A DNA stretch of 64,000 nt from Naegleria gruberi. Taxonomy: Eukaryota. A program made the translations under genes and the position numbers. The stretch is taken from the NCBI GenBank assembly GCA_000004985.1, contig GG738856.1. One strand, given 5' to 3'. Positions 14,898 to 35,873 of this stretch are shown piece after piece (the stretch's first letter is position 1; each line of letters begins with the position of its first letter). The notes beneath the pieces are model-generated. The model did no database searches. It saw only the letters and a program-made list of their open reading frames with translations, and was not told the origin of the DNA.

Positions 14898-15008
14898 AGG
14901 GTAAACTAATGAAATGGGAATTGAACTTTATGCTACTAAGTGAGAACTTGAGAAACTTTGTTGAACTTGGAACTTTATATTCACTGGAACCAAAGACAAA
15001 CAGAAAAA

Positions 15009-16514
15009 ATGGTTCAAAACGAAACCGTGTCTGATACTAGTTCTACAAAATCGCAATGCAAACAGAATGATTTTAATTTCATGGCGCTGGAGTTACTATT
15101 TGAAACTGCTATTAACTTTTTAAAAGTTAATGAAATTTTTAACTTAGCCATATCATGTAATCTATTCTATTCTTCAATATTTTGTAATCCCAATATGTGG
15201 ATAAAATTAGCAAAAAGAGAAGGAATGTATGAGGATGGAAATACTTCAATCGAGTGCAAAGATATGTTTCGTATTGGTAGGTGCATATCTGATTTCTTAG
15301 ACATTGTTATTAAAAACAAAAGCTGGCATTTATCTCATGAAGAGATCACAAATATTTTCAGAGAAACTTGTCCAAACACCAAACTTGTTCATTTGGCTTA
15401 TTTATTGAGAAGTGGCTATTCTGTTGAGAAGAGAAGATTGGTTATTGGATATGTATTACCTCTTTTTAGAACTTCAGAACACTATCGCGAAACATTGCAG
15501 AAAATATTTATTGATGCTTGTTTAATGGAGCCAAATAATTCCATCCTCTCATATTCATTCACTTCCTCATATTATCATGAATTGATGGAAACTAAGGAAG
15601 TTGATGCTGCGTTGTTTACTACTGCTCTCAGACGTAATGGCAGTTTACTTTGGTTAAACGAGTTTTTATGTACTTTGATGGTTAGAAGATTCGACAAAAA
15701 CAATTTAGAGGACAGTAACTATGAAATGGCTATTTACTTACTAAAACTGAAACACCAGCCACAAAACGGAGCTATTTCAACTGTTTATCAAATATTTCAA
15801 TTATTTTATAACAGAAAGCAAGATTATATGGAACATTTCAAAGAAATTCTTAGAAATCCTAGTTCATCCAAGCTGGTAATTGAAAATTTACAAATTTTCA
15901 ACCAAGTGTTTTTAGAAGAAGTCATTACAGCACCACATAATCTTTATGTTAGAAAGGAATATTGTAAAAAGTTCTTTACCACTAAGAGGGATTATGTTTT
16001 AAATAATGAATTGGAAGAAAAGGCATTCAATTTTTTTATTAATTATGAAGGATATTCATGGGAAATTGATTATTTGTTTTCCAATTTTATTCGACTAAAG
16101 GAAAGTGCTGGAGATGAATTTTACGAAAAACACAGACATCACTTTTATGAGATTTTCTTCACTCACTGGAAAGAAGCCATAGAAAAACAAGAAATGCTTA
16201 TTGAGCTTTCGAAAATTGATCTTAAGAGAACTGTTGATGAAATGCTAAACGCTGATCCACCCATTTATCTATCATGTATTTTTTCGAAATTGAAACAAGC
16301 AACTCAAATTATTGAGATATTTAAAACCTATTCGAATGAAATTGAAAAGAAGGAGCAAGAAATATTATTTTGCAACCTGACACATGCTTTGAAAAAAGTT
16401 CTAATCAAACATTATAATGAAAAGACAAAAAAGTTTCTGTTGGATATGATAGATTGGATGACACCAGTTTATCCCAAGGCAAATGAACTATGTCAAAAGA
16501 TCTTGCAGAACTAG
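15009..16514 (+). CDS. Hypothetical protein with an N-terminal F-box-like motif
   Basis: The ORF-track start at 14958 is a TTG. The first in-frame ATG is at about 15009 (MVQNETVSD). The F-box-like segment is LELLFETAINFLKVNEIFNLAISCNLF...NPNMW. Confidence 0.4.
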   Translation: MVQNETVSDTSSTKSQCKQNDFNFMALELLFETAINFLKVNEIFNLAISCNLFYSSIFCNPNMWIKLAKREGMYEDGNTSIECKDMFRIGRCISDFLDIVIKNKSWHLSHEEITNIFRETCPNTKLVHLAYLLRSGYSVEKRRLVIGYVLPLFRTSEHYRETLQKIFIDACLMEPNNSILSYSFTSSYYHELMETKEVDAALFTTALRRNGSLLWLNEFLCTLMVRRFDKNNLEDSNYEMAIYLLKLKHQPQNGAISTVYQIFQLFYNRKQDYMEHFKEILRNPSSSKLVIENLQIFNQVFLEEVITAPHNLYVRKEYCKKFFTTKRDYVLNNELEEKAFNFFINYEGYSWEIDYLFSNFIRLKESAGDEFYEKHRHHFYEIFFTHWKEAIEKQEMLIELSKIDLKRTVDEMLNADPPIYLSCIFSKLKQATQIIEIFKTYSNEIEKKEQEILFCNLTHALKKVLIKHYNEKTKKFLLDMIDWMTPVYPKANELCQKILQN

Positions 16515-16889
16515 TTCTGATAATGTTGTAAAAACCTTTCTTTGTAACAATAAGAAAATCTGTTGTTTCTTCTAGGTTGCGATTCTACTAGAAATTGACT
16601 CAATCAAGAGAGTGTTAGACAAGAAAATTGTGGTCAACAGCCCTCTAACTAATTAATTGGCTTAATCTTTTTGTTAACCCTCAGCACACTAAATTCATAA
16701 TTCAACAAGTGTTACATGACTCTGATTGAACTCCGATTGTTCTAGGAAAATCAAAACTCACAATAATTCAACCATCTTCATCTAATACATTCTCTTTCCC
16801 AATTAGAAAGCCATTTAGAAAAAAAATGTTTGCAAGTCGGTCAATCCACAATGATGGTTCGTTTTTTAATGCATTTTCTTCCGATTTAA

Positions 16890-16960
16890 TATTCAATCAA
16901 TATTATTGAATATGTTCAATATATTCAATATATTCAATATATCAATATATTAAATCATGA
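16890..16960. repeat. AT-rich microsatellite-like tandem repeat (attcaatat / tattgaata units)
   Basis: tattgaatatgttcaatatattcaatatattcaatatatcaatatatt lies in the intergenic region upstream of the GTPase gene. Confidence 0.6.
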
Positions 16961-16994
16961 TGAAATATAATTATCGGAAATCACAATATTAGAT

Positions 16995-17694
16995 ATGATC
17001 AGCAATGAAGTGGAAATGCTATTGAATGATCCTGATTTTAAAATCAAAATAGTAATGGTTGGATCTCCTAATAGTGGAAAAACATCATTAGCTACTCGAT
17101 TTGCTAAATGTGAATTTGATATGAATAAATCGTATGAACATTCTACAGATACGAGTATTCAGTTGGCTAAAATTGATGTCAATGATAAACAAGTTACAAC
17201 TGAAATTTGGGATTGTATCAGTGAATTGGGAGTTGCCCATGAGGAAAAGAGAAGATTACAATATTTGAATACTATGGCTTTTATAATTTGTGTGTCACTG
17301 ACTGATGAGTCAACTTTGGAGGATGCTCTTCATTATGTAAGTTTTTTTATTGGAAACCCAAGTTTCAAAACATGAATGGAAATTGGATTATCTCAATTTT
17401 AATTATATAGTGGATTCCTGAAATTAAGAAATATTCACCTGATACACCAATTGTCTTATGTGGATCTAAACTTGATCTTGTTAAGAATGATTCTTCAATT
17501 GGAACACAAAATCAAAATAGGTATACTACTTATGAACACATGGTTCATCAAGCTAAAAGAAGTAAATGTAAAACCTATGTGGAAACAACGTGCATATCAG
17601 ATGTGACAGTTGTTCAATTATTTGCAACAGCAATCCAATGTGCCTTAGGTCTTTACAAGGACGATGACTCTTCCAAAAAATGCTCTCTCATGTA
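16995..17694 (+). CDS. Divergent Rho-family small GTPase-like protein (probable pseudo-GTPase) with a C-terminal CaaX box, 2 exons
   Basis: Exon 1 is 16995..17337, followed by a GTAAGT...ATATAG intron of about 74 nt, then exon 2 about 17412..17694. It has a P-loop GSPNSGKT and a Rho signature WIPEIKKYSPDTPIVLCGSKLDL. Switch-II DTAGQ is replaced by DCISE. The C-terminal CSLM is a CaaX box. Confidence 0.6.
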
Positions 17695-17849
17695 AATTTC
17701 ATAAATCAATTGTAATTAATTATCCTTCTCCAAACATTCCTTGAATATTCACTTGAAATGTAATTAAGAATTAAAAATCTCTCAATCAATTTAACCCTCA
17801 ATAAAAATTTACAAACAATTTTTTTTAAGCTAAAATTAGATTTAAAAAA

Positions 17850-20393
17850 ATGCTTGGACAACAACAATCGGATTCGGAACGTAAATTTCTCTCTCGTTTG
17901 ATCAGCTCGCAAAAACAATCACAACAATATGTTGATGAGGGATTGAAAGCTAAAGCAAGAGCCTTGATTCCTGTGGATCAAATTCATGAACGAGCACAAG
18001 AAAAATACAAGATGAAAAAGGAGAATGATCCAAACTCTAATCCATTGTTGGAACGTTTCATCATTCAAGAGTTATTAAATTGGTTTAAGAGTGATTTTTT
18101 CAAGTGGGTTAATAATCCTCCTTGTGATCATTGTCAAGCAACAAATACAAACGGAATGGGAGGAGTTGCTCCTAATGCTTCGGAACAACAAAATTTAGCT
18201 GGTATTGTTGAATTGTATTCATGTCCAAATTGTAGACAAACTACCAGATTTCCTCGATATAATTATGTTGGAAAATTATTGGAAACTAGAAGAGGAAGAT
18301 GTGGTGAGTGGGCTCAATGTTTCACTTTAATGGCCTCAGCTATGGGATATGAAGCAAGATATGTTCTTGATTGGACTGATCACGTTTGGACTGAGGTTTA
18401 TTTGGATGGATGGTGTCATGCTGATTCATGTGAAGGAACACTGGATTCACCAATGATGTATGAAGCTGGATGGCAAAAGAAACTCTCTTATATTATTGCT
18501 TTCTCTGCAGAGGAAGTAATTGATGTCACAAAAAGATATACTCAAAATTTCTATTCTGACGACTTCCAACAAAGAAGAAGAGCTCAAGGCATTAGTGAAC
18601 CTTGGTTAGAAAGCACATTGAAAAACATTAATGAGCAATTGCATGTATTTATGCCACCTTACAGATCTACCTTCCTTAAAAATAGACAAACAAAGGAAAA
18701 AGATCAAATTGAACAAAAGCAAAAATCCTCGTCTGACCTCACATTGGAAGAACAAAGAGGAAGAATATCCGGCTCTGAAGAGTGGAAGAAGTCTCGAGGA
18801 GAAACAGGCAAAACATCTTGTGATGACGATAGCTGTCCTGTTCCTCAATATAAGTTAGAGCAATCTGTTGTGGATAGCCTTAAGCTCTATACCAACAAGA
18901 TTGAAGTGAATAAGAAAACAAATTCTCTATCTTGTCTAGGAAATTGTAGAGTTTTGAATGATAATTCAATCATAATTACAGAAAACAAGACTTCTCAATG
19001 CGGTTCAATAGTGTTTAATGATCAGTTGGATGTGCGTGATATGGTTATTGAATTCTCGTTCCAACTTACAAAGAATGGAACTGGAGCCGATGGGTTTGCC
19101 CTGATTATGCACTCCAATGATAATGCTGCACAAATGGGAGCTCCTGGTAGTGGAATGGGATATGAAGGAATACCAAACTCTATTGCAATCGAATTTGATA
19201 CTTACCAAACCTTCGATAGAACAAGAGATCCAGATTCAAACCATATCTCTATCCAAACAAGATATGACAAACCAAACTCTGCACATCACGACTATTCTCT
19301 CAAATGTACAACAAGTCTTCCTATTACTCTTTCAGATGGAAAAATTCACAACTGTCAACTTCTTATCCAAGGAGGGAAATTATCTATTATTTTAGAGAAG
19401 GAATATTTGATACTGAAGGATGTATCTGTTGATTTTGAGAGAGTATTTGGAAAGGGAAAGAAATTTAGAATTGGCTTAACTGCTTCAACAGGTGGTTTAT
19501 CAGAAGAACACAAAATTGTAAATTGGTCCATCCTCACAAAAACAACTAGTACTTCATATGTTCTCTTTGACCAAGTGAACATTGCAGGTGTTGAGAAAAA
19601 ACTCAAGGAATTGATTTCTCGTGAACCTAGTCCTACAATTACAGATATACAAGTTCAATCGCTTTTGAATGTGAGTGGTTGGAAAATTACAGAAATTTCC
19701 TTAGTGAATTCTATCCTCAGACAATGGAAATTCGAAAACCTCTTCCCAATTATTGACTTGTTGCGTATTGCCATTGTAAACAACAAGACTGTCTCAGATA
19801 CATTCTCCAAGCTTTTCATACAGAATCAAAAGGACCATTTATTATTGAATATCTTTAACAAGACTAGTGAGGCAACAGTTGAAAATTCGTACGCCTACTG
19901 CCTTGTATCTCTTAGACTTATTAACAATCTCTTTAAGGAAAGGTTAGGTAGAGTCTATGTTAACAAGTTCACAGACAAAATCTTGGAACAGTTGACAGAA
20001 AGCAAAATTTTCACCTTACAACCAACCTCAAAACCTGCATATAGACAAACGTACGGTGCTCTCCTTCACAATCTCTCACTATTATTTGTAAATGAGCTTC
20101 CAGATGAAGAAATGATGGTTAGGTTATTCTCCACCTCCTTTGAAATGTTGGAAAAAGAGATTTCAAGAGAAGACTTTGATGAAAGTGCTTGTCAATATGC
20201 TATCAAATCGTTAACAATACTTCTCAAGGTTGATTCAAAGGAACAACCAACCGATGAAGAGGACAGTATCATGCATGGTCTTGCCTTAAGTATGGACATT
20301 CATAGTTTAGTGTTGAAATTGAAGACAAGAAACCTTGCCAATGTGGATTTGTGTTCTCTTCTCAACTCATTAGAAAAACAGTTTGGAAATTAA
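17850..20393 (+). CDS. Peptide:N-glycanase (PNGase, transglutaminase-like core) with an internal legume-type (L-type) lectin domain and a C-terminal helical domain
   Basis: Zinc-binding CDHC...CPNC, then catalytic Cys/His/Asp context RGRCGEWAQCF, DWTDHVWTEVY and HADSCE. An L-type lectin-like segment follows: GADGFALIMHSNDNAAQMGAPGSGMGYEGIPNSIAIEFDTYQT. ATG at 17850, single exon. Confidence 0.8.
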   Translation: MLGQQQSDSERKFLSRLISSQKQSQQYVDEGLKAKARALIPVDQIHERAQEKYKMKKENDPNSNPLLERFIIQELLNWFKSDFFKWVNNPPCDHCQATNTNGMGGVAPNASEQQNLAGIVELYSCPNCRQTTRFPRYNYVGKLLETRRGRCGEWAQCFTLMASAMGYEARYVLDWTDHVWTEVYLDGWCHADSCEGTLDSPMMYEAGWQKKLSYIIAFSAEEVIDVTKRYTQNFYSDDFQQRRRAQGISEPWLESTLKNINEQLHVFMPPYRSTFLKNRQTKEKDQIEQKQKSSSDLTLEEQRGRISGSEEWKKSRGETGKTSCDDDSCPVPQYKLEQSVVDSLKLYTNKIEVNKKTNSLSCLGNCRVLNDNSIIITENKTSQCGSIVFNDQLDVRDMVIEFSFQLTKNGTGADGFALIMHSNDNAAQMGAPGSGMGYEGIPNSIAIEFDTYQTFDRTRDPDSNHISIQTRYDKPNSAHHDYSLKCTTSLPITLSDGKIHNCQLLIQGGKLSIILEKEYLILKDVSVDFERVFGKGKKFRIGLTASTGGLSEEHKIVNWSILTKTTSTSYVLFDQVNIAGVEKKLKELISREPSPTITDIQVQSLLNVSGWKITEISLVNSILRQWKFENLFPIIDLLRIAIVNNKTVSDTFSKLFIQNQKDHLLLNIFNKTSEATVENSYAYCLVSLRLINNLFKERLGRVYVNKFTDKILEQLTESKIFTLQPTSKPAYRQTYGALLHNLSLLFVNELPDEEMMVRLFSTSFEMLEKEISREDFDESACQYAIKSLTILLKVDSKEQPTDEEDSIMHGLALSMDIHSLVLKLKTRNLANVDLCSLLNSLEKQFGN

Positions 20394-24342: not shown

Positions 24343-26121
24343 TTATTGGGAAGCAGTTGCAGTAGGTGGGGGTGATGATTGGTTCTTTCTTTCCTCCATA
24401 AATTGAACAATCTTGGAATAAACTGCTTTGGAATAGATGGCGGCACGACGAACAATTTCAGATCTAATTCTTTGAGTTTCAACAGTAGATCCACTCAACA
24501 TATCTCCATTTTCAATGAGTCTTCTAGCCAAGTATGGCATAACATCAGTAACACTACCAAATGGAACATATTTTCCAACATTATATCCGTGATAAACCAA
24601 AGCATGAGATAAATTATCACCCATACCATAAAGTTGAGCAAACATAACACGTGGATCCTTCTTTTCAAATCCATACTTTTCAGTTAACAATCTACTACTC
24701 ATTCCCAAAGTGTCTTGGTTGTGTGAACAAATGAGGACACCAATATTTCCTTCACTATATAAATTATCGAGACAAAATTCAACTCCTCTAACATAGTTGA
24801 CGTGAGTTTCCAACAGTGTTTGTTGGAAAGGATATGGTATACCCATTTCGTTAGATCTAATTGTTTCAGATTTCATATAAGCACCTCTAACGAGCTTTGA
24901 ACCATGATGTAATCCGTTTTGAGTTAAAAAGTGATAATCGAATTGTAATCTATGGAGAGCATCCTTAAGATACATTTGATAGGTATTATAAACAACTGGT
25001 GTTTGTCTATTCTTCAAAATTTCCTTATTATTATACTTGATGCTCATCATCATGTACAATTGATCAATTGCAGCTTGATAATAAGTTTGTTCAGCATCAA
25101 CCAACAAACTCATTCCATTCTTGACGCAAGCATCACAGAGCATTGTGAGTCTTTGAATAACTCTACCCAATTTTGTTAATTCAACTTGAGAGAGAGGTTC
25201 CGGCGGTGTGTTTTCATTCAAGTTAAATGCAACAGTTCTAGGATATTGCTTGACAGTATATTCTTTCATTAAATCAAAAGTGCTGACATCAGAGGCAATA
25301 TCTCCAAAGAAATAAATATTAGTATTGAGCAATTTCTTGGCATGTTCAGATTCTGGGAATAATTGAACATAACATAAAATCTTACTCAATCTTTCCAAAA
25401 GGATACAACTAGAGATACCAGTAACTTTTACAACACCAAATGGACAAGGCAGTGGCTCATTAATACCATCTCTCTTCATGGCTCTATTTTGTTCTCCCAT
25501 AAATTCAATTGATTCAGCAATTACTTTGCAAATAGAATCTTCAACAACTTCTGAGCTATCTACATTAATAACAGAAGTTTCCAATGGTTGAACTGGACCT
25601 TCAACACTATAATCCAAGATACAATGCATTTTTTTGTTTTGAGTTACATCCACAATGGCCTTTTTGGTTTTTGGTAAAGTTTCACCTCCACAGAAATATT
25701 GGAAATAAGAATATTTAACAGCTTGAGAAACAACAGGTCCTCCTTTCTCAAGAATTTCAGCACCAATAGTTCTAACACCTGGCAATCTGCAACTTGTTAA
25801 AGCAGTATAGGTTTTCAATAATTGCCATGATGAAACTTGGTCATAATAAAGTTCAACTTTGGAAAAATCAATAGAAGTATTTCCACTAGTCCATTTCTTT
25901 TCTTGAGTAGCAATTCCTCCATCTTGTTGATTATTAACAATAGTACTTGTGGAAATATCCTCTGTTGTTGCTGATGATGAAGTTGCTTCTTGTTGTTGCA
26001 AATTTGTTCCTCTCATCATTGCCGAGCAACAGAAATTTCTACTTGTTTGAGTAGTAATAATAGAATTGGTTATCTTGTTGCTAACAGAGGCAACAACTCC
26101 TCTTGAACATTTAGTTAACAT
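24343..26121 (-). CDS. Proline dehydrogenase (proline oxidase), mitochondrial
   Basis: PRODH signatures KLVRGAYM and the C-terminal motif YVPFGSVTDVMPYLARRLIENGDM (matching Y.PYG...E..PYL.RR..EN). The N-terminus is presequence-like. ATG at 26121. Confidence 0.85.
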   Translation of the reverse strand: MLTKCSRGVVASVSNKITNSIITTQTSRNFCCSAMMRGTNLQQQEATSSSATTEDISTSTIVNNQQDGGIATQEKKWTSGNTSIDFSKVELYYDQVSSWQLLKTYTALTSCRLPGVRTIGAEILEKGGPVVSQAVKYSYFQYFCGGETLPKTKKAIVDVTQNKKMHCILDYSVEGPVQPLETSVINVDSSEVVEDSICKVIAESIEFMGEQNRAMKRDGINEPLPCPFGVVKVTGISSCILLERLSKILCYVQLFPESEHAKKLLNTNIYFFGDIASDVSTFDLMKEYTVKQYPRTVAFNLNENTPPEPLSQVELTKLGRVIQRLTMLCDACVKNGMSLLVDAEQTYYQAAIDQLYMMMSIKYNNKEILKNRQTPVVYNTYQMYLKDALHRLQFDYHFLTQNGLHHGSKLVRGAYMKSETIRSNEMGIPYPFQQTLLETHVNYVRGVEFCLDNLYSEGNIGVLICSHNQDTLGMSSRLLTEKYGFEKKDPRVMFAQLYGMGDNLSHALVYHGYNVGKYVPFGSVTDVMPYLARRLIENGDMLSGSTVETQRIRSEIVRRAAIYSKAVYSKIVQFMEERKNQSSPPPTATASQ

Positions 26122-26678: not shown

Positions 26679-27893
26679 ATGTTAACAATGCATCACTGTG
26701 TAGCACCAAAACTCGGTCGTTTGGTTTCCGATTCTAGAAATTCAATCAAATTGACATTCCGAACACTATCTCTTCTCCAACAACAACAACAACAAGGAAG
26801 AAGAAATTTTTCATCATCAATTTTGCTGAATAATAAGAGTTTTACTAATCAATTAATTATTCAAAAGATGGGTGCCATCACACCACAAATGAAAAACAAG
26901 ATGGCAAAAAAGACTAGAGTGAATAGGGAAAATCATGAATTAATTAGTGAAATGGATAATTTAGTATTGAAGGATGATTCACCTATTCTTGCTCAGTCGG
27001 ATGTTTTGAAAAAAGAATTGGTTGAATTTGTTGCAAATTCTCAAGTTAAAACAGGTTCCGAAATTATTGAACATACAGCCAATCGTCAACATTACTTTAC
27101 ACAACAAGAAATTGCCAAAATTCATGGCGTTTACAAGAATAGTGTGTTCTTCAAACATACTAAAATTAGTTTGGAAAAATACTTTTTAAATTATAATGTA
27201 CTTGTACACAAATCTAAGGAACAAAATGATTTATATTATATTGGACATCAATTATTGAAATATATACTTACTAAATATTTTAATGAAAACCTTTCGTTAG
27301 TTCAAGAATTGATGGCTGAAGGTAAAACTCTCAACATTATCAATGACAAGATTACAAAAGATTTCCAAATTAAGGAACATTTACTTGAATATTTCTTGAA
27401 TAATAATCAATTATTCTACATTTATATTCAACAAAATAACTTGAAGGAATTAGAGCCACTCTTAAAAGATATCAGTTTTACTTCGAACGATTTTATTAAC
27501 AAGTCTGCACACGAGAGAATATTCAAGGCGATTATTGGTAATATTTACATGAATATTGAATCTTTTGATATTATGATGAATCATGTTTTATATCCTTTCA
27601 TTGTTAAGGAATTTATACCTAGATTTACAGAGCTGACCGAAAGCAATCTAGCTCAAATTTCTACAAAGAAAGCGTTTGAGAAACAAATGACAATCGTTGA
27701 GCAATTTGAATACTTCCACATGAGACAATTTAAAACACTCCCAACCTATTCATCCTTAACAAACAGCTTTGAACAAACTCAAATGGTACAAATCTATTCC
27801 TCAGACCAACAACTTTTGTCAATTGGTTATGGAATTGATTACAAGACAGCTAAAGAAGATGCAGCAAGAAGAGCTATTTTACATTTTTGTTAA
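26679..27893 (+). CDS. Probable mitochondrial protein with a C-terminal dsRBD-like motif (possibly mL44 / RNase III-like mitoribosomal protein)
   Basis: The N-terminus MLTMHHCVAPKLGRLVSDSRNS resembles a targeting peptide. The C-terminal GYGIDYKTAKEDAARRAILHF matches the dsRBD helix-3 signature. Confidence 0.4.
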   Translation: MLTMHHCVAPKLGRLVSDSRNSIKLTFRTLSLLQQQQQQGRRNFSSSILLNNKSFTNQLIIQKMGAITPQMKNKMAKKTRVNRENHELISEMDNLVLKDDSPILAQSDVLKKELVEFVANSQVKTGSEIIEHTANRQHYFTQQEIAKIHGVYKNSVFFKHTKISLEKYFLNYNVLVHKSKEQNDLYYIGHQLLKYILTKYFNENLSLVQELMAEGKTLNIINDKITKDFQIKEHLLEYFLNNNQLFYIYIQQNNLKELEPLLKDISFTSNDFINKSAHERIFKAIIGNIYMNIESFDIMMNHVLYPFIVKEFIPRFTELTESNLAQISTKKAFEKQMTIVEQFEYFHMRQFKTLPTYSSLTNSFEQTQMVQIYSSDQQLLSIGYGIDYKTAKEDAARRAILHFC

Positions 27894-30633: not shown

Positions 30634-31876
30634 ATGTCATCATTAGCAAGATTAATTTCAGACCATGTAAACTTGATAGAAAGTCTTTCATCATCGAATT
30701 TATCTTTATTGGATTTTGAGAATACTGATACGAATATCACCCTTGCAGAGTTGGACCCTCTTTATCAATCAATTGTTGGAATAGTACTTTCGTCCATTTT
30801 CTTTGTTTTTTTCAATATCTTGATAATAATTGTTTCGACCACGTTAATTAGACCAAAAGCAAGAAACGAAATGAAACGAAACCAATTCATTATGGTTGCA
30901 ATGGTCTCTGTCTTATCCCTAATTCAATGTTCAGGAATTATTTCAAGGATTTTTTGTGACCTCCTAAATATTATAATCGTTTCTCAATACCAGGACTTTG
31001 TGTCAGCAAATTATTTGCCAGAATCTCAAGAGTTTATTGACACTTTTCAAAACATTAATTGCTCACTGACAACAACACAGACTGGGATTAAATTCTCTTA
31101 CCTCATCTCAATGCATGTCTTTGATTCTTTCGAATGTTTCTTCATTGGAATGAATTTATTGATGATGGTTCTGATAATGAGCTTTGTTGGAAATGTTTTC
31201 CTTGAAACTGTAAAGCAAGCTGGGAGTAGGAAGGACTGGAATTTACGTTCCACAAGATGGTTGATGATAATTCTCAATTCCTTCACATGTTTGTTTTGTG
31301 GTTCGTTTGGGGCAATTATTATGGCAGTGTCTGTTATTTATTTCTTCATCAAGATGGGAATGTTGGAGAATTTTGAGTTTATTCTATTTCTAATAGGATA
31401 TATTATTTACTTTCTTCAAATTTTTATTCACACAATTATTTCAATTGTAAGTTTCTAATTCAGTTATTCTAATCCTTTGACATTTGCAATAGATTGTTGC
31501 ATTTAAGGTTTTACAAACAATCAAAACTCAAACATCTCAACAAAACAAGCAACAAACCCAACGACCAATCATTAAGATCATTTCTCTTCAAATTGCATTA
31601 ATAGCTGCAGCTTTATCTCAAATCATTGCCTTGGCATGTATAACGGTTGTGGATTATTGGAGTTACATGTCTATATTTTACAATTTCAGCAATTCTATTG
31701 GAATTTTCTTATTTGGAATTGTCACCATTCTACTCTATCATCCAATTTTCACAGATTCTGTAAAATTTGTGAATGATTTGCCCAATTCTATTCAACCAAT
31801 TGGTTCAAGAGTGAAAAGAAATAGTCTCTTTAAAAAACAACCACAAATTATTGACAATTCATCCATTGTTGTTTAA
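30634..31876 (+). CDS. Polytopic (about 7-TM) serpentine-receptor-like membrane protein, 2 exons
   Basis: Exon 1 is 30634..31446, followed by a 46-nt GTAAGT...CAATAG intron (31447..31492), then exon 2 31493..31876. Multiple hydrophobic helices. No strong family signature. Confidence 0.5.
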
Positions 31877-34522: not shown

Positions 34523-35718
34523 ATGTCTGAAAATCAAGTGCCAGAAATTCAGTTGAAGGATGGTGAAGAAAAAGAGATACAAGATCATATGGATCATAAC
34601 GATCATGGAGAACAAACTCTGCCTGTACTCAACGGAGGAAATATAAAATATTTGGATATGGTAGAATTTGATAATCGATTCAATGATGATATATTCCGAT
34701 TGGTTTTGTCTTTTCTTGCTATTCGTGATTTGGGAAGATTGGAAAGAGTGAGTAAACATCTAAGATTGAGCCAATTGTGTGGCGAAGATTCAGAAATATG
34801 GAGGAAAGCTTATGAAAAAAAAGTTACTGAATTACATGAAATTTTGAAAAAATCTGGGGCTATTTATGAAAATCCAATTCTGCCCTTTTTGGGTAAGATA
34901 TCAGATTTTAAATCAAGTATTTGTGGTGCATTGAAAGTGTTTGATACCCTAGTAGAGAAAAAGTCTTCAGTGAGAATGGAAGATATAGAAAGATCGATCA
35001 AGAACTATCCCACTACTGGTATTAAGAACATTTTTGTGCCAAAGGATGAGCTCTTAAAATTCGATGTATCCTCAGCTGTATATAAAAAGAAAGAGGAAGG
35101 TATTAAATTGCTTGCATTAGGTAGGTTTAGTTTAAGAATTATTGATTCATATTATAAGGGGATGGAGCTGTTGGAAAAACTTGTTTGATGCTAAGGTTAC
35201 TCACTGGAGAGTATCCAACCGAGTACGTTCCTACTGTGGTGGACAATTATATGAATAATTATCAACTCGACAATAATGTCTATAGAGTATGTTACTGGGA
35301 TACAGCAAGTTCAGATGATTATCCTAGGCTGAGAGTTTTGGCATATCCTCAAACAGATGTCTTTATGGCAATGTTTAGTTGTGTTCAAGAGTATTCTTTC
35401 AAAAATTTATTCGATGTTTGGATACCAGAAGTGAGACACCATGTTCCTGATGCTGCCACTGTTCTCGTTGCTACAAAGATAGATTTGAGAAGTGATATTG
35501 ATGTTCAGGCAAAACTGATTGAAAGATATTGTACCAGACCGTTCTCTTACAAAGATGGCGAAAAGGCAGCACAACTTTCCAATTGTTTCACCTATTTTGA
35601 GACAAGCTCACTGATGAATATTGGTATCAAAGATTTTACAGAAATAGCCTTAAAGGCACACTTTAAAAATTTGAGTTTGAGAGAAACTAAAGAAAAAAGG
35701 AAATGCATCTTACAATAA
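34523..35718 (+). CDS. Rac/Rho-like GTPase domain, lacking the switch-II Gly-Gln and ending in a CaaX box, fused to an N-terminal extension of about 200 aa with an F-box-like motif; 2 exons
   Basis: Exon 1 is 34523..35120 (F-box-like FNDDIFRLVLSFLAIRDLGRLERVSKHLRL). A 38-nt GTAGGT...TATAAG intron lies at 35121..35158. Exon 2 is 35159..35718 (GDGAVGKTC, YVPTVVDNY, WDTASSDDYPRLRVLAYPQTDVF, WIPEVRHHVP, VATKIDLR, C-terminal KEKRKCILQ). Identity to Rac1 is high throughout, except that DTAGQ is replaced by DTASS. Confidence 0.65.
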
Positions 35719-35800: not shown

Positions 35801-35873
35801 GCCCGTCTAGCTCAGTCGGTAGAGCGCAAGGCTCTTAACCTTGTGGTCGTGGGTTCGACCCCCACGGTGGGCG
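35801..35873 (+). tRNA. tRNA-Lys (anticodon CUU)
   Basis: gcccgtctagctcagtcggtagagcgcaaggctCTTaaccttgtggtcgtgggttcgacccccacggtgggcg has a 7-bp acceptor stem (with GU pairs), a D-arm AGCTCAGTCGGTAGAGC, a T-arm GTGGGTTCGACCCCCAC, and anticodon loop gctCTTaac. Confidence 0.9.

What the first reader, a model, noticed from the sequence alone, without database searches (positions are those of the whole stretch)
16995..17694. Second Rho-family pseudo-GTPase candidate with a degenerate G3 motif and a CaaX box
The P-loop (GSPNSGKT) and the Rho-specific WxPEI..P..P..LCGSKLDL segment are conserved. The DxxGQ switch-II motif is DCISE, with no Gly and no Gln. The protein ends in CSLM, a CaaX box. Two independent Rho-like genes in 64 kb both lack the catalytic Gln and both keep prenylation signals. 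That suggests a lineage-specific family of GTP-locked or non-catalytic Rho paralogs rather than sequencing error.
Basis: partly seen in the sequence, partly recalled or inferred. Interest (0 to 1): 0.5.

Follow-up and report, generated by a model that had tools for sequence, protein, structure and literature searches.

The report
Atypical farnesylated Rho GTPase in Naegleria
This is a real, conserved gene of a Naegleria amoeba for a membrane-anchored Rho-type switch protein that keeps its nucleotide-binding parts but has lost the residues needed to switch itself off, an independent protist counterpart of the animal Rnd/RhoH proteins.

Summary
The gene model needs correcting. The 74-nt intron is 17337..17410, not 17338..17411. 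The stop codon is 17693..17695. Comparative evidence adds a 5' exon (16826..16856, MFASRSIHND) and a 136-nt intron, giving a 219-aa protein.

The window comes from a Naegleria, probably the N. gruberi group (33% GC). The protein is clearly Rho-family: every top PDB sequence hit is Rho, with Rnd3 and Rac1 best.

It is neither a sequencing error nor a pseudogene:
- An independent metagenome contig encodes the identical protein, with only synonymous differences in the coding sequence.
- Orthologs exist in Willaertia magna and three environmental heteroloboseans.
- They share the HY|W intron position, the N-terminal MF.S.S...LL.DPDF extension and the KKCaaX tail.
- Non-synonymous change is far below saturated synonymous change (pN about 0.35, pS about 0.75).

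No member has Gly12 (Pro or Ser instead) or Gln61, and Gly60 survives in only 2 of 5. The nucleotide-binding residues are kept: GK(T/S), Phe28, a switch-I Ser/Thr, Asp57, (T/S)KxD and G5.

Best reading: a GTPase-deficient, farnesylated atypical Rho that works like Rnd/RhoH but arose independently. Its biochemistry is untested. The second Rho gene in the window is an unrelated F-box-Rho fusion, so the two genes do not form one family.

The parts
16826..16856 (+). Exon 1 (31 nt, phase 1): start codon and MFASRSIHND(+G).
   Evidence: The same MF.S.S start is present in all four orthologs. The first 14 nt of the coding sequence (ATGTTTGCAAGTCG) are identical in the window and L002, and both are preceded by an A-run. 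The intron that follows has the same phase as in L002, L004 and L005. This rests on comparison only; no transcript data were available.
16857..16992 (+). Intron 1 (136 nt, GTTCGT...ATTAG). It contains a 9-bp tandem repeat, TCAATATAT x6.6, at 16897..16955.
   Evidence: Reading through runs into an in-frame stop, so splicing is required to join exon 1 to exon 2. The donor GTTCGT is weaker than the GTAAGT/GTGAGT donors of the other introns.
16993..17336 (+). Exon 2: the N-terminal extension, G1, switch I, G3 and switch II.
   Evidence: A metagenome gene call (P0001) covers this exon at 100% identity.
17013..17039 (+). Family-specific N-terminal motif EMLLNDPDF (consensus [EQ]x[LM]LxDPxF), placed just before strand beta-1.
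   Evidence: L21, D23, P24 and F26 are invariant in alignment A1. The equivalent residues 13-22 form a helix in the AlphaFold model of the Willaertia ortholog.
17061..17084 (+). G1 / P-loop GSPNSGKT. The GxxxxGKT frame is intact, but the Ras Gly12-equivalent residue is Pro.
   Evidence: The orthologs have P, P, S and S at this position and never Gly.
17142..17156 (+). Switch I / G2 region STDTS. A hydroxyl residue is kept at the Thr35-equivalent position. The canonical Rho effector loop YxPTVFDNY is replaced.
   Evidence: T64 is invariant in the family, and the preceding S/T column is conserved. HMMER aligns the family P-S to P-T37 of Rnd3. Which of the two residues is the true G2 residue is not resolved.
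17211..17225 (+). G3 DCISE in place of DTAGQ. Asp57 is kept; Gly60 is Ser and Gln61 is Glu.
   Evidence: The orthologs read DIVGI, DFIGE, DCFSD and DVLSK.
17244..17264 (+). Remodelled switch II / helix alpha-2 motif EKRRLQY (family consensus EKRKLQY, against the canonical DRLRPLSY). It follows a 2-residue insertion.
17337..17410 (+). Intron 2 (74 nt, GTAAGT...TATAG, phase 0), lying between HY and WIPE.
   Evidence: The intron sits at the same position and in the same phase in L002, L003 (Willaertia) and L004. It is also present in the independent contig L001.
17411..17695 (+). Exon 3: WIPEI, G4, the Rho insert, G5, CaaX and the stop codon (TAA at 17693..17695).
17465..17476 (+). G4 SKLD, in the Rho-type (T/N)KxD frame; the orthologs have TKxD.
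17480..17527 (+). Rho-insert region VKNDSSIGTQNQNRYT. It is about 11 residues longer than H-Ras at this point and 3 shorter than Rac1.
   Evidence: Alignment. In the Willaertia model this segment has low confidence (pLDDT about 60) and is not helical.
17585..17596 (+). G5 TTCI, against SAK in the three full-length orthologs and SAL in Rac1. This is a species-specific, mostly conservative change.
17675..17692 (+). C-terminal KKCSLM: a short basic patch followed by a CaaX box with X = Met. Met at X predicts farnesylation.
   Evidence: The orthologs end in KKCLLM, KKCLIM and KKCLIQ. The rule linking X to the type of prenyl group is established knowledge and was not tested here.
34523..35718 (+). 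Context only: the other Rho-like gene of the window (exons 34523..35120 and 35159..35718, 385 aa). It is an F-box-like + Rho fusion with G3 DTASS and C-terminus CILQ.
   Evidence: It is not a close relative of the gene under study.

Best explanation
The locus is an intact three-exon gene (16826..16856, 16993..17336, 17411..17695) in a Naegleria genome. It encodes a 219-aa Rho-family small G protein. The protein belongs to a small clade conserved among heteroloboseans: Naegleria, Willaertia and environmental relatives.

The clade keeps what is needed to hold a guanine nucleotide and Mg2+:
- the P-loop GK(T/S);
- the Phe28 equivalent;
- a switch-I Ser/Thr;
- Asp57;
- (T/S)KxD;
- G5.

It has lost what is needed to hydrolyse GTP in the canonical way and to respond to an arginine-finger RhoGAP. 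Gly12 is Pro or Ser. Gln61 is Glu, Ile, Asp or Lys. In this species Gly60 is also Ser.

The inferred mechanism is as follows. The protein is farnesylated at Cys216 (CSLM). Together with the adjacent Lys-Lys, this places it on a membrane. It stays permanently loaded with nucleotide instead of cycling. It signals or scaffolds through clade-specific surfaces: the remodelled switch I, the EKRKLQY switch II and the N-terminal helix. Control would come from synthesis, localisation or turnover rather than from GEFs and GAPs.

This is how animal Rnd1-3 and RhoH work (class ii pseudoGTPases), but here the state was reached independently.

Shown: the gene structure, conservation, purifying selection, Rho-family affinity, and the pattern of kept and lost residues. 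Inferred: nucleotide loading, absence of hydrolysis, farnesylation and the mode of regulation.
For: Gene and family:
- The spliced ORF is intact.
- Pfam Ras E=1.4e-20.
- The top 60 PDB sequences are all Rho-family, both for the single protein (Rac1 9e-17, RhoE 8e-16) and for the family profile (RhoE/Rnd3 105 bits, Rac1 102, RhoA 94).
- Non-Rho references score 38-57 bits against 76-101 bits for Rho references.
- The AlphaFold model of the Willaertia ortholog has pLDDT 83. Its best Foldseek PDB matches are Rnd3, RhoG, Rac1 and Cdc42.

Real and constrained:
- An independent contig, L001, differs at 5 of 814 nt. Two differences lie in the CDS and both are synonymous.
- An exhaustive phmmer search of 1.8 billion representatives found four relatives at 43-47% identity, followed by a sharp drop in score.
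- The relatives share the HY|W intron, the MF.S.S start, the DPDF motif and the KKCaaX tail.
- pN is 0.32-0.38 against pS 0.69-0.82.

Residue pattern:
- G34, G39, K40, F52, T64, W83 and D84 are invariant.
- Position 12 is never Gly and position 61 is never Gln.

Known precedent:
- Rnd proteins and RhoH lack Gly12, RhoH also has an altered G3/switch II, and all are constitutively GTP-bound and GAP-insensitive (PMC13236570).
- The Rnd family is the class ii pseudoGTPase example (PMC5593906).
Against: - No biochemistry, structure or expression data exist for this protein.
- Gly60 normally couples switch II to the gamma-phosphate. Without it, as in the window protein, Willaertia and L005, the protein may not adopt a GTP-specific 'on' conformation at all.
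- Glu at the Gln61 position could still support hydrolysis. From memory, Ras Q61E is reported to hydrolyse GTP faster than wild type.
- The 2-residue insertion makes the switch II alignment uncertain.
- The window protein's G5 (TCI) differs from the SAK of its orthologs and could weaken nucleotide affinity.
- The structure model is of the Willaertia ortholog, not of the window protein.
- The Rho-insert helix is not predicted in that model.
Confidence: 0.55

Rival explanations
1. It still works as a GTPase through a non-canonical mechanism (class iii pseudoGTPase, like the RGK proteins or Rap). The catalytic residue would come from Glu88 or another cis residue, or from a dedicated GAP acting in trans. 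The protein would then still cycle, only slowly or with unusual regulators.
For: All nucleotide-binding motifs are retained. RGK proteins have DXWE in place of DXXG yet can hydrolyse GTP (PMC4081519, PMC5593906). The window protein and L004 carry Glu at the Gln61 position. Naegleria encodes large sets of Rho regulators (PMC5499878).
Against: The residue at position 61 is not conserved in the clade (E, I, E, D, K), so no shared cis-catalytic residue is apparent. Position 12 is Pro or Ser in every member, which in Ras and Rho blocks arginine-finger GAPs (PMC13236570).
Confidence: 0.2
2. It is a nucleotide-independent scaffold (class i pseudoGTPase). Only the G-domain fold and the lipid anchor matter, and nucleotide binding has been lost.
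For: In the window protein three motifs are non-canonical at once: G1 position 12 Pro, G3 DCISE and G5 TCI. Switch I and switch II are completely remodelled.
Against: GxxxxGK(T/S), the Phe28 equivalent, Asp57 and (T/S)KxD are invariant or nearly so across sequences only 43-52% identical overall. That conservation is hard to explain if the pocket is unused. Known class i pseudoGTPases lack these motifs (PMC5593906, PMC12490416).
Confidence: 0.15
3. It is an artefact: a sequencing or assembly error, a decaying pseudogene, or a wrong gene model that hides a canonical DTAGQ.
For: The 5' exon donor (GTTCGT) is weak. No annotated ortholog was found in N. fowleri or N. lovaniensis, and none lies at the syntenic position in N. 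lovaniensis.
Against: An independent contig encodes the identical protein. Four orthologs have intact ORFs and a shared intron position. pN is well below pS. No DxxG[QHNT] exon exists in any frame within 15500..19000.
Confidence: 0.02
4. One reading: the two Rho-like genes of the window belong to one expanded lineage-specific family of Gln-less Rho paralogs.
For: Both genes lack Gly60 and Gln61, and both end in a CaaX box. A further degenerate Rho-like protein (P0251, DCHAM) turned up in the searches.
Against: The two genes share 26% identity. The family profile scores the other gene lower than it scores human Rho proteins. The architectures differ: one is an F-box fusion, the other has a short N-terminal helix. 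An N. lovaniensis homolog of the F-box-Rho gene is canonical DTAGQ.
Confidence: 0.05

Closest known systems
Rnd1-3 / RhoE (animal atypical Rho GTPases; class ii pseudoGTPases)
   Same: Both have the Rho fold. The family profile's best PDB hit and the model's best structural hit are both RhoE/Rnd3. Both have a non-Gly residue at position 12 and a non-Gln residue at position 61. Both have a CaaM-type tail that predicts farnesylation, and both have an N-terminal extension. Both are expected to be GAP-insensitive and constitutively loaded (PMC13236570, PMC5593906).
   Different: Rnd proteins keep Gly60 (DTSGS) and the canonical Rho switch I (YVPTVFENY). The window protein has neither. The score margin over Rac1 is only 3-5 bits, so there is no evidence of orthology. 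From memory, Rnd is restricted to animals, so the resemblance is best read as convergence. Switch II carries a 2-residue insertion and the motif EKRKLQY.
RhoH (haematopoietic, GTPase-deficient Rho)
   Same: It lacks Gly12 and has an altered G3/switch II. It is constitutively active, and its output is set by expression level and turnover (PMC13236570). It has a CaaX tail.
   Different: RhoH retains the DxxG glycine (from memory, DTAGN). It has no family-specific N-terminal helix. It is vertebrate-specific.
RGK family (Rad, Gem, Rem1/2; class iii pseudoGTPases)
   Same: RGK is the best-known Ras-superfamily group in which the G3 glycine itself is replaced (DXWE in place of DXXG). Switch I is not conserved, while G4 and G5 are (PMC4081519).
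   Different: RGK proteins are Ras-like rather than Rho-like. They have no Rho insert and no CaaX box, and they carry long calmodulin-binding and 14-3-3-binding extensions. No DXWE motif is present here.
Canonical Naegleria / amoebozoan Rac-Rho expansion
   Same: N. gruberi is reported to encode at least 23 Rho GTPases together with many Dbl and DOCK GEFs (PMC8305917, PMC5499878). This gene is part of that expansion and has the WxPE motif, an insert of Rho-like length and a CaaX box.
   Different: It is 25-30% identical to canonical Rac/Rho and has non-canonical G1 position 12, G2 context, G3 and switch II. It is restricted to a small heterolobosean clade.

Membership tests
Ras superfamily small GTPase fold | G-domain recognised by profile models, with a Ras-like alpha/beta fold | tested here: met
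   Pfam PF00071 Ras E=1.4e-20 over residues 18-190 of the 208-aa model. The AlphaFold model of the ortholog has pLDDT 83 and matches Rho structures with a target-normalised TM-score of 0.8-0.9.
Rho family | Closer in sequence to Rho/Rac/Cdc42 than to the Ras, Rab, Ran or Arf families | tested here: met
   The top 60 PDB sequences are all Rho-family. No formal phylogeny was made.
Rho family | Rho insert (10-15 aa) between strand beta-5 and helix alpha-4 | tested here: inconclusive
   An insertion of about 11 residues relative to H-Ras lies at the correct position (the 10-15 aa criterion is from PMC8305917). Its sequence is unrelated to the canonical insert. In the Willaertia model it has low confidence and is not helical.
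Rho family | C-terminal CaaX prenylation signal with an adjacent basic residue patch | tested here: met
   KKCSLM in the window protein; KKCLLM, KKCLIM and KKCLIQ in the orthologs. Actual prenylation was not tested.
Rho family (canonical, cycling) | G3 DTAGQ with Gly60 and catalytic Gln61, plus Gly12 in the P-loop | tested here: not met
   The window protein has DCISE and GSPNSGKT. No clade member has Gly12 or Gln61.
Rho family (canonical, cycling) | Conserved effector loop Y(V/I)PTVF(D/E)NY in switch I | tested here: not met
   It is replaced by SYEHSTDTSIQ in the window protein and by SPS(T/N)(D/E)T in the orthologs.
Rnd subfamily | Orthology to animal Rnd1-3 (DTSGS G3, canonical switch I, animal distribution) | tested here: not met
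   Rnd3 is the best profile hit, but only by 3-5 bits over Rac1. G3 and switch I both differ. The clade was found only in heteroloboseans.
Class ii pseudoGTPase (binds nucleotide, no catalysis) | Stable GTP binding without hydrolysis | not testable with these tools
   This is inferred from retained G1, G4, G5 and Asp57 together with lost Gly12 and Gln61. The definition is from PMC5593906. Testing it needs recombinant protein.
RGK family | DXWE G3 signature, no CaaX box, and a C-terminal extension that binds calmodulin and the calcium-channel beta subunit | tested here: not met
   There is no DXWE motif, a CaaX box is present, and the protein is Rho-like rather than Ras-like. The criterion is from PMC4081519.

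The most novel reading that the evidence does not exclude
The clade could be an independently evolved protist 'broken-switch' Rho whose members have given up gamma-phosphate sensing altogether, having lost Gly60 in the window protein, Willaertia and L005. It would act as a doubly anchored adaptor. One anchor would be the farnesylated C-terminus. The other would be the invariant Met-Phe N-terminus with its conserved helix, which could be a NatC-type acetylated targeting signal like that of Arl3p/Arl8. That parallel is recalled from memory and is speculative. This would be a mode of Rho action not described in any organism.
Probability: 0.1. Interest if true: 0.6.

Novelty: new member of a known kind. 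Interest (0 to 1): 0.3.

Why it matters
GTPase-deficient 'atypical' Rho proteins such as Rnd, RhoH and RhoBTB have been studied almost only in animals. A conserved, independently derived counterpart in Heterolobosea suggests that permanently loaded Rho proteins recur whenever the Rho family expands. It would also give Naegleria cell biologists a defined candidate for motility, phagocytosis and amoeba-flagellate studies.

The practical value is more modest. It consists of a corrected three-exon gene model and a defined five-member clade with a clear residue signature. The finding does not open a long-standing question, and its biochemical state is still a prediction.

Tried and rejected
1. They were replaced by 17337..17410.

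2. I first guessed a dictyostelid origin, from the AT-rich sequence and poly-N/Q proteins, and read the Dictyostelium Rac literature. I dropped this when the proline dehydrogenase ORF hit N. lovaniensis at 68% and Willaertia at 60%.

3. The word-indexed search with the 208-aa protein found only its own metagenome fragment.

I therefore searched with exon 1 only and modelled the Willaertia ortholog instead.

5. The metagenome contig scan with the family alignment returned 465 pattern matches, none confirmed.

6. The window's flanking genes have no match in L002, L003 or L004. Synteny with N. lovaniensis holds up to the PNGase gene and breaks exactly where this gene sits. That locus therefore says nothing about presence or absence elsewhere in the N. 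lovaniensis genome.

7. No alternative G3-encoding exon was found.

8. Literature searches found no description of atypical Rho proteins in Naegleria.

9. Paralogs could not be counted genome-wide, because only the window is available and the source proteome appears to be absent from the protein databases.

Full report
**Observation**

The region 16500..18200 was read directly. With 17337..17410 (74 nt, GTAAGT...TATAG) the two ORF pieces join cleanly into a 208-aa protein starting at the ATG at 16995.

- GSPNSGKT at 17061..17084;
- DCISE at 17211..17225;
- WIPEIKKYSPDTPIVLCGSKLDL from 17411;
- CSLM at 17681..17692, followed by TAA at 17693..17695.

No frame between 15500 and 19000 encodes a DxxG[QHNT] peptide that could act as an alternative G3 exon.

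**Organism**

The window is 33% GC and gene-dense, with short GT-AG introns. The proline dehydrogenase ORF (24343..26121, minus strand) is 68% identical to the protein of Naegleria lovaniensis. N. fowleri falls in the same 90% cluster. Identity to Willaertia magna is 60%.

Gene order around it is shared with N. lovaniensis contig PYSW02000010: the ORF at 26679..27893, ProDH, the trypsin-like genes and PNGase. The window is therefore a Naegleria that is distinct from the fowleri/lovaniensis pair. By GC content it is most likely the N. gruberi group. Its own annotated proteome seems to be absent from the protein databases searched.

**What the protein is**

- Pfam assigns it to the Ras family at E=1.4e-20.
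- Against all PDB sequences, the top 60 distinct hits are all Rho-family. Rac1 scores 9e-17, RhoE/Rnd3 8e-16 and RhoB 1.4e-15.
- Aligned with human Rac1, RhoA, Cdc42, Rnd3 and H-Ras, it has the Rho-type WxPE motif and the (T/S)KxD G4.
- At the Rho-insert position it carries an insertion of about 11 residues relative to H-Ras.
- It ends in a CaaX tail.

**Relatives**

The word-indexed search found only a 126-aa metagenome gene call identical to exon 2 (P0001).

Apart from itself, four proteins stand out at 43-47% identity (62-96 bits). After these the hits fall into generic Ras-superfamily matches. The four are:
- a full-length Willaertia magna protein, KAL9641611.1 (P0123), with an identical second copy, KAL9643207.1;
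- three fragments from environmental assemblies: JGI 3300002220, ENA ERZ27237410 and Logan SRR29240419.

Their contigs were fetched and gene models were built by hand.

**Corrected gene model**

All four full-length genes have an intron at exactly the same place and phase as the window's 74-nt intron, between (H/D/Q)Y and W(I/L)PE.

All five proteins begin with MF.S.S and then [EQ]x[LM]LxDPxF. In L002, L004 and L005 this start lies on a tiny 5' exon, followed by a phase-1 intron.

The window has the same sequence, ATGTTTGCAAGTCGG, at 16826, preceded by an A-run. A GT follows at 16857 and an AG at 16991..16992. At that Met the orthologs have Gly, Leu or Val, so it is not a conserved start.

The best model is therefore 16826..16856 + 16993..17336 + 17411..17695, giving 219 aa. 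The caveat is the weak donor (GTTCGT), and the support is comparative only. I put this 5' exon at about 0.8.

**Not an error, not a pseudogene**

Contig L001, from an unrelated metagenome project (PRJEB11402), matches window 16958..17771 at 99.4%. It has five mismatches. Two fall in the CDS and both are synonymous. Three lie 3' of the stop codon. DCISE is therefore reproduced independently.

Between the four full-length genes, synonymous sites are saturated (pS 0.69-0.82) while pN is 0.32-0.38. Where dS can be computed, dN/dS is at most 0.15-0.28. All the ORFs are intact.

**Residue pattern**

Kept in every member:
- the P-loop frame, G34 and G39-K40 followed by T or S;
- the Phe28 equivalent (F52);
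- a hydroxyl residue in switch I: an invariant T64 and, three residues before it, a conserved S/T that HMMER aligns to the G2 Thr of Rnd3;
- W83-D84, the Asp57 equivalent;
- (T/S)KxD.

G5 is SAK in the three full-length orthologs. In the window protein it is TCI, which is conservative relative to Rac1's SAL.

Lost in every member:
- Gly12, replaced by Pro in three members and Ser in two;
- Gln61, replaced by E, I, E, D and K.

Gly60 is kept in two members (DIVGI, DFIGE) and is Ser in three: DCISE in the window, DCFSD in Willaertia and DVLSK in L005.

Switch II has a 2-residue insertion and a clade-specific EKRKLQY motif. The Rho effector loop YxPTVFDNY is gone.

The tails are KKCSLM, KKCLLM, KKCLIM and KKCLIQ. 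By the established CaaX rule, X = M or Q predicts farnesyl rather than geranylgeranyl.

**Profile and structure**

The five-sequence profile hits RhoE/Rnd3 best (105 bits, 3.9e-29), then Rac1 (102) and RhoA (94). Again all 60 listed hits are Rho-family.

Against a small reference panel, Rho proteins score 76-101 bits and Ran, Rap, Rab and Ras score 38-57 bits.

The spliced window protein could not be submitted for structure prediction, so the Willaertia ortholog was modelled with a 46-sequence alignment. The model has pLDDT 83 and pTM 0.82, with a Ras-like fold and an extra N-terminal helix at residues 13-22. The insert region has low confidence and is not helical.

Foldseek against the PDB ranks RhoE/Rnd3 (1gwn) first, then RhoG, Rac1, Cdc42 and RhoA.

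**Mechanism**

The combination found here has three parts:
- intact nucleotide-binding motifs;
- a non-Gly residue at position 12 and a non-Gln residue at position 61;
- a farnesyl-type CaaX tail.

This is the signature of the animal atypical Rho proteins Rnd1-3 and RhoH. Those proteins are GTP-loaded on synthesis, insensitive to GAPs, and controlled by expression, localisation and degradation (PMC13236570). Rnd proteins are the textbook class ii pseudoGTPases (PMC5593906).

I therefore commit to a constitutively nucleotide-loaded, non-hydrolysing, farnesyl-anchored adaptor that signals through clade-specific surfaces. Confidence is about 0.55 for the whole statement. It is about 0.9 for 'real, conserved, atypical Rho gene'.

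Loss of the DxxG glycine goes beyond Rnd and RhoH. The best-known precedent is the RGK family (DXWE), which still hydrolyses GTP (PMC4081519, PMC5593906). Two rivals therefore stay open:
- class iii behaviour, perhaps using Glu88;
- class i behaviour, with no nucleotide bound.

An artefact is essentially excluded.

The other Rho-like gene (34523..35120 + 35159..35718, 385 aa) has DTASS and CILQ as stated. It is an F-box-like + Rho fusion and is 45% identical to Rac1 in the G domain. It is only 26% identical to the gene studied here.

The clade profile scores it lower (58 bits) than it scores human Rho proteins. An N. lovaniensis protein with the same F-box-Rho architecture has a canonical DTAGQ.

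The two genes therefore lost their catalytic residues independently. The 'lineage-specific family' exists, but it contains only the first of them.

**Distribution**

No annotated N. fowleri or N. lovaniensis protein belongs to the clade. In N. lovaniensis the syntenic block ends exactly at the 5' end of the PNGase gene, where this gene sits in the window. The neighbour there matches window ~30700..31800 instead.

Absence from those species is therefore possible but not shown. A metagenome contig scan added nothing.

**Known or new**

N. gruberi is already known to have a large Rho repertoire, at least 23 genes, and many RhoGEFs (PMC8305917, PMC5499878). Atypical GTPase-deficient Rho proteins are a well-known kind.

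I found no paper that describes this clade or any atypical Rho in Naegleria.

Verdict: a new member of a known kind that arose independently in Heterolobosea. It has some unusual details: loss of Gly60, a conserved N-terminal extension and a remodelled switch II. It is moderately interesting to specialists and is not a surprise. Interest 0.3.

Noticed in passing
window 34523..35718 (exons 34523..35120 and 35159..35718): This gene encodes a 385-aa protein that joins an N-terminal F-box-like domain (Pfam PF12937, E=0.002, below the curated cut-off) to a Rac-like GTPase with G3 DTASS and tail CILQ. N. lovaniensis XP_044555926.1 has the same F-box + Rho architecture at 29% identity, but with a canonical DTAGQ. 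An F-box-Rho fusion recalls RhoBTB-type links between Rho proteins and cullin ligases.
   Followed up: partly
window 35801..35873: A tRNA-Lys(CTT) gene lies 83 bp downstream of the stop codon of the F-box-Rho gene.
   Followed up: no
window 16897..16955: A 9-bp tandem repeat (TCAATATAT, 6.6 copies) sits inside the inferred first intron of the gene under study.
   Followed up: no
window 17850..20393; L006 15611..18274: The downstream neighbour is a PNGase-like protein with an unusual domain string: transglutaminase core + Rad4 + L-type (legume) lectin + PUL. It has no clear PAW domain. The same architecture is present in N. lovaniensis.
   Followed up: no
window ~16500..17850, compared with L006 18274..19913: Synteny with N. 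lovaniensis breaks exactly at the 5' end of the PNGase gene. In N. lovaniensis the next gene matches window ~30700..31800, so a rearrangement breakpoint adjoins the atypical Rho gene. The upstream ORF 14958..16514 (518 aa) has no Pfam hit and no match in any fetched locus.
   Followed up: partly
L002 5867..5989; L005 from 829; L003 8001..8381: Intron positions vary within the clade. L002 has an extra intron inside the P-loop codons (GSPSTG|KT). L005 has one inside switch II. Willaertia lacks the 5' intron. Only the HY|W intron is universal.
   Followed up: partly
protein P0251 (NCBI/JGI metagenome, 307 aa): This is another N-terminally extended Rho-like protein with a degenerate G3 (YDCHAME), LCGSKID and tail CRIT. 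It suggests that further Gln-less Rho lineages exist in related protists.
   Followed up: no
window as a whole: Neither the Rho protein nor the ProDH of the window has an identical annotated protein in the databases searched. Only a prokaryote-style gene call from a metagenome (ERZ929261) matches. The annotated proteome of the source genome therefore appears to be missing from those collections.
   Followed up: no
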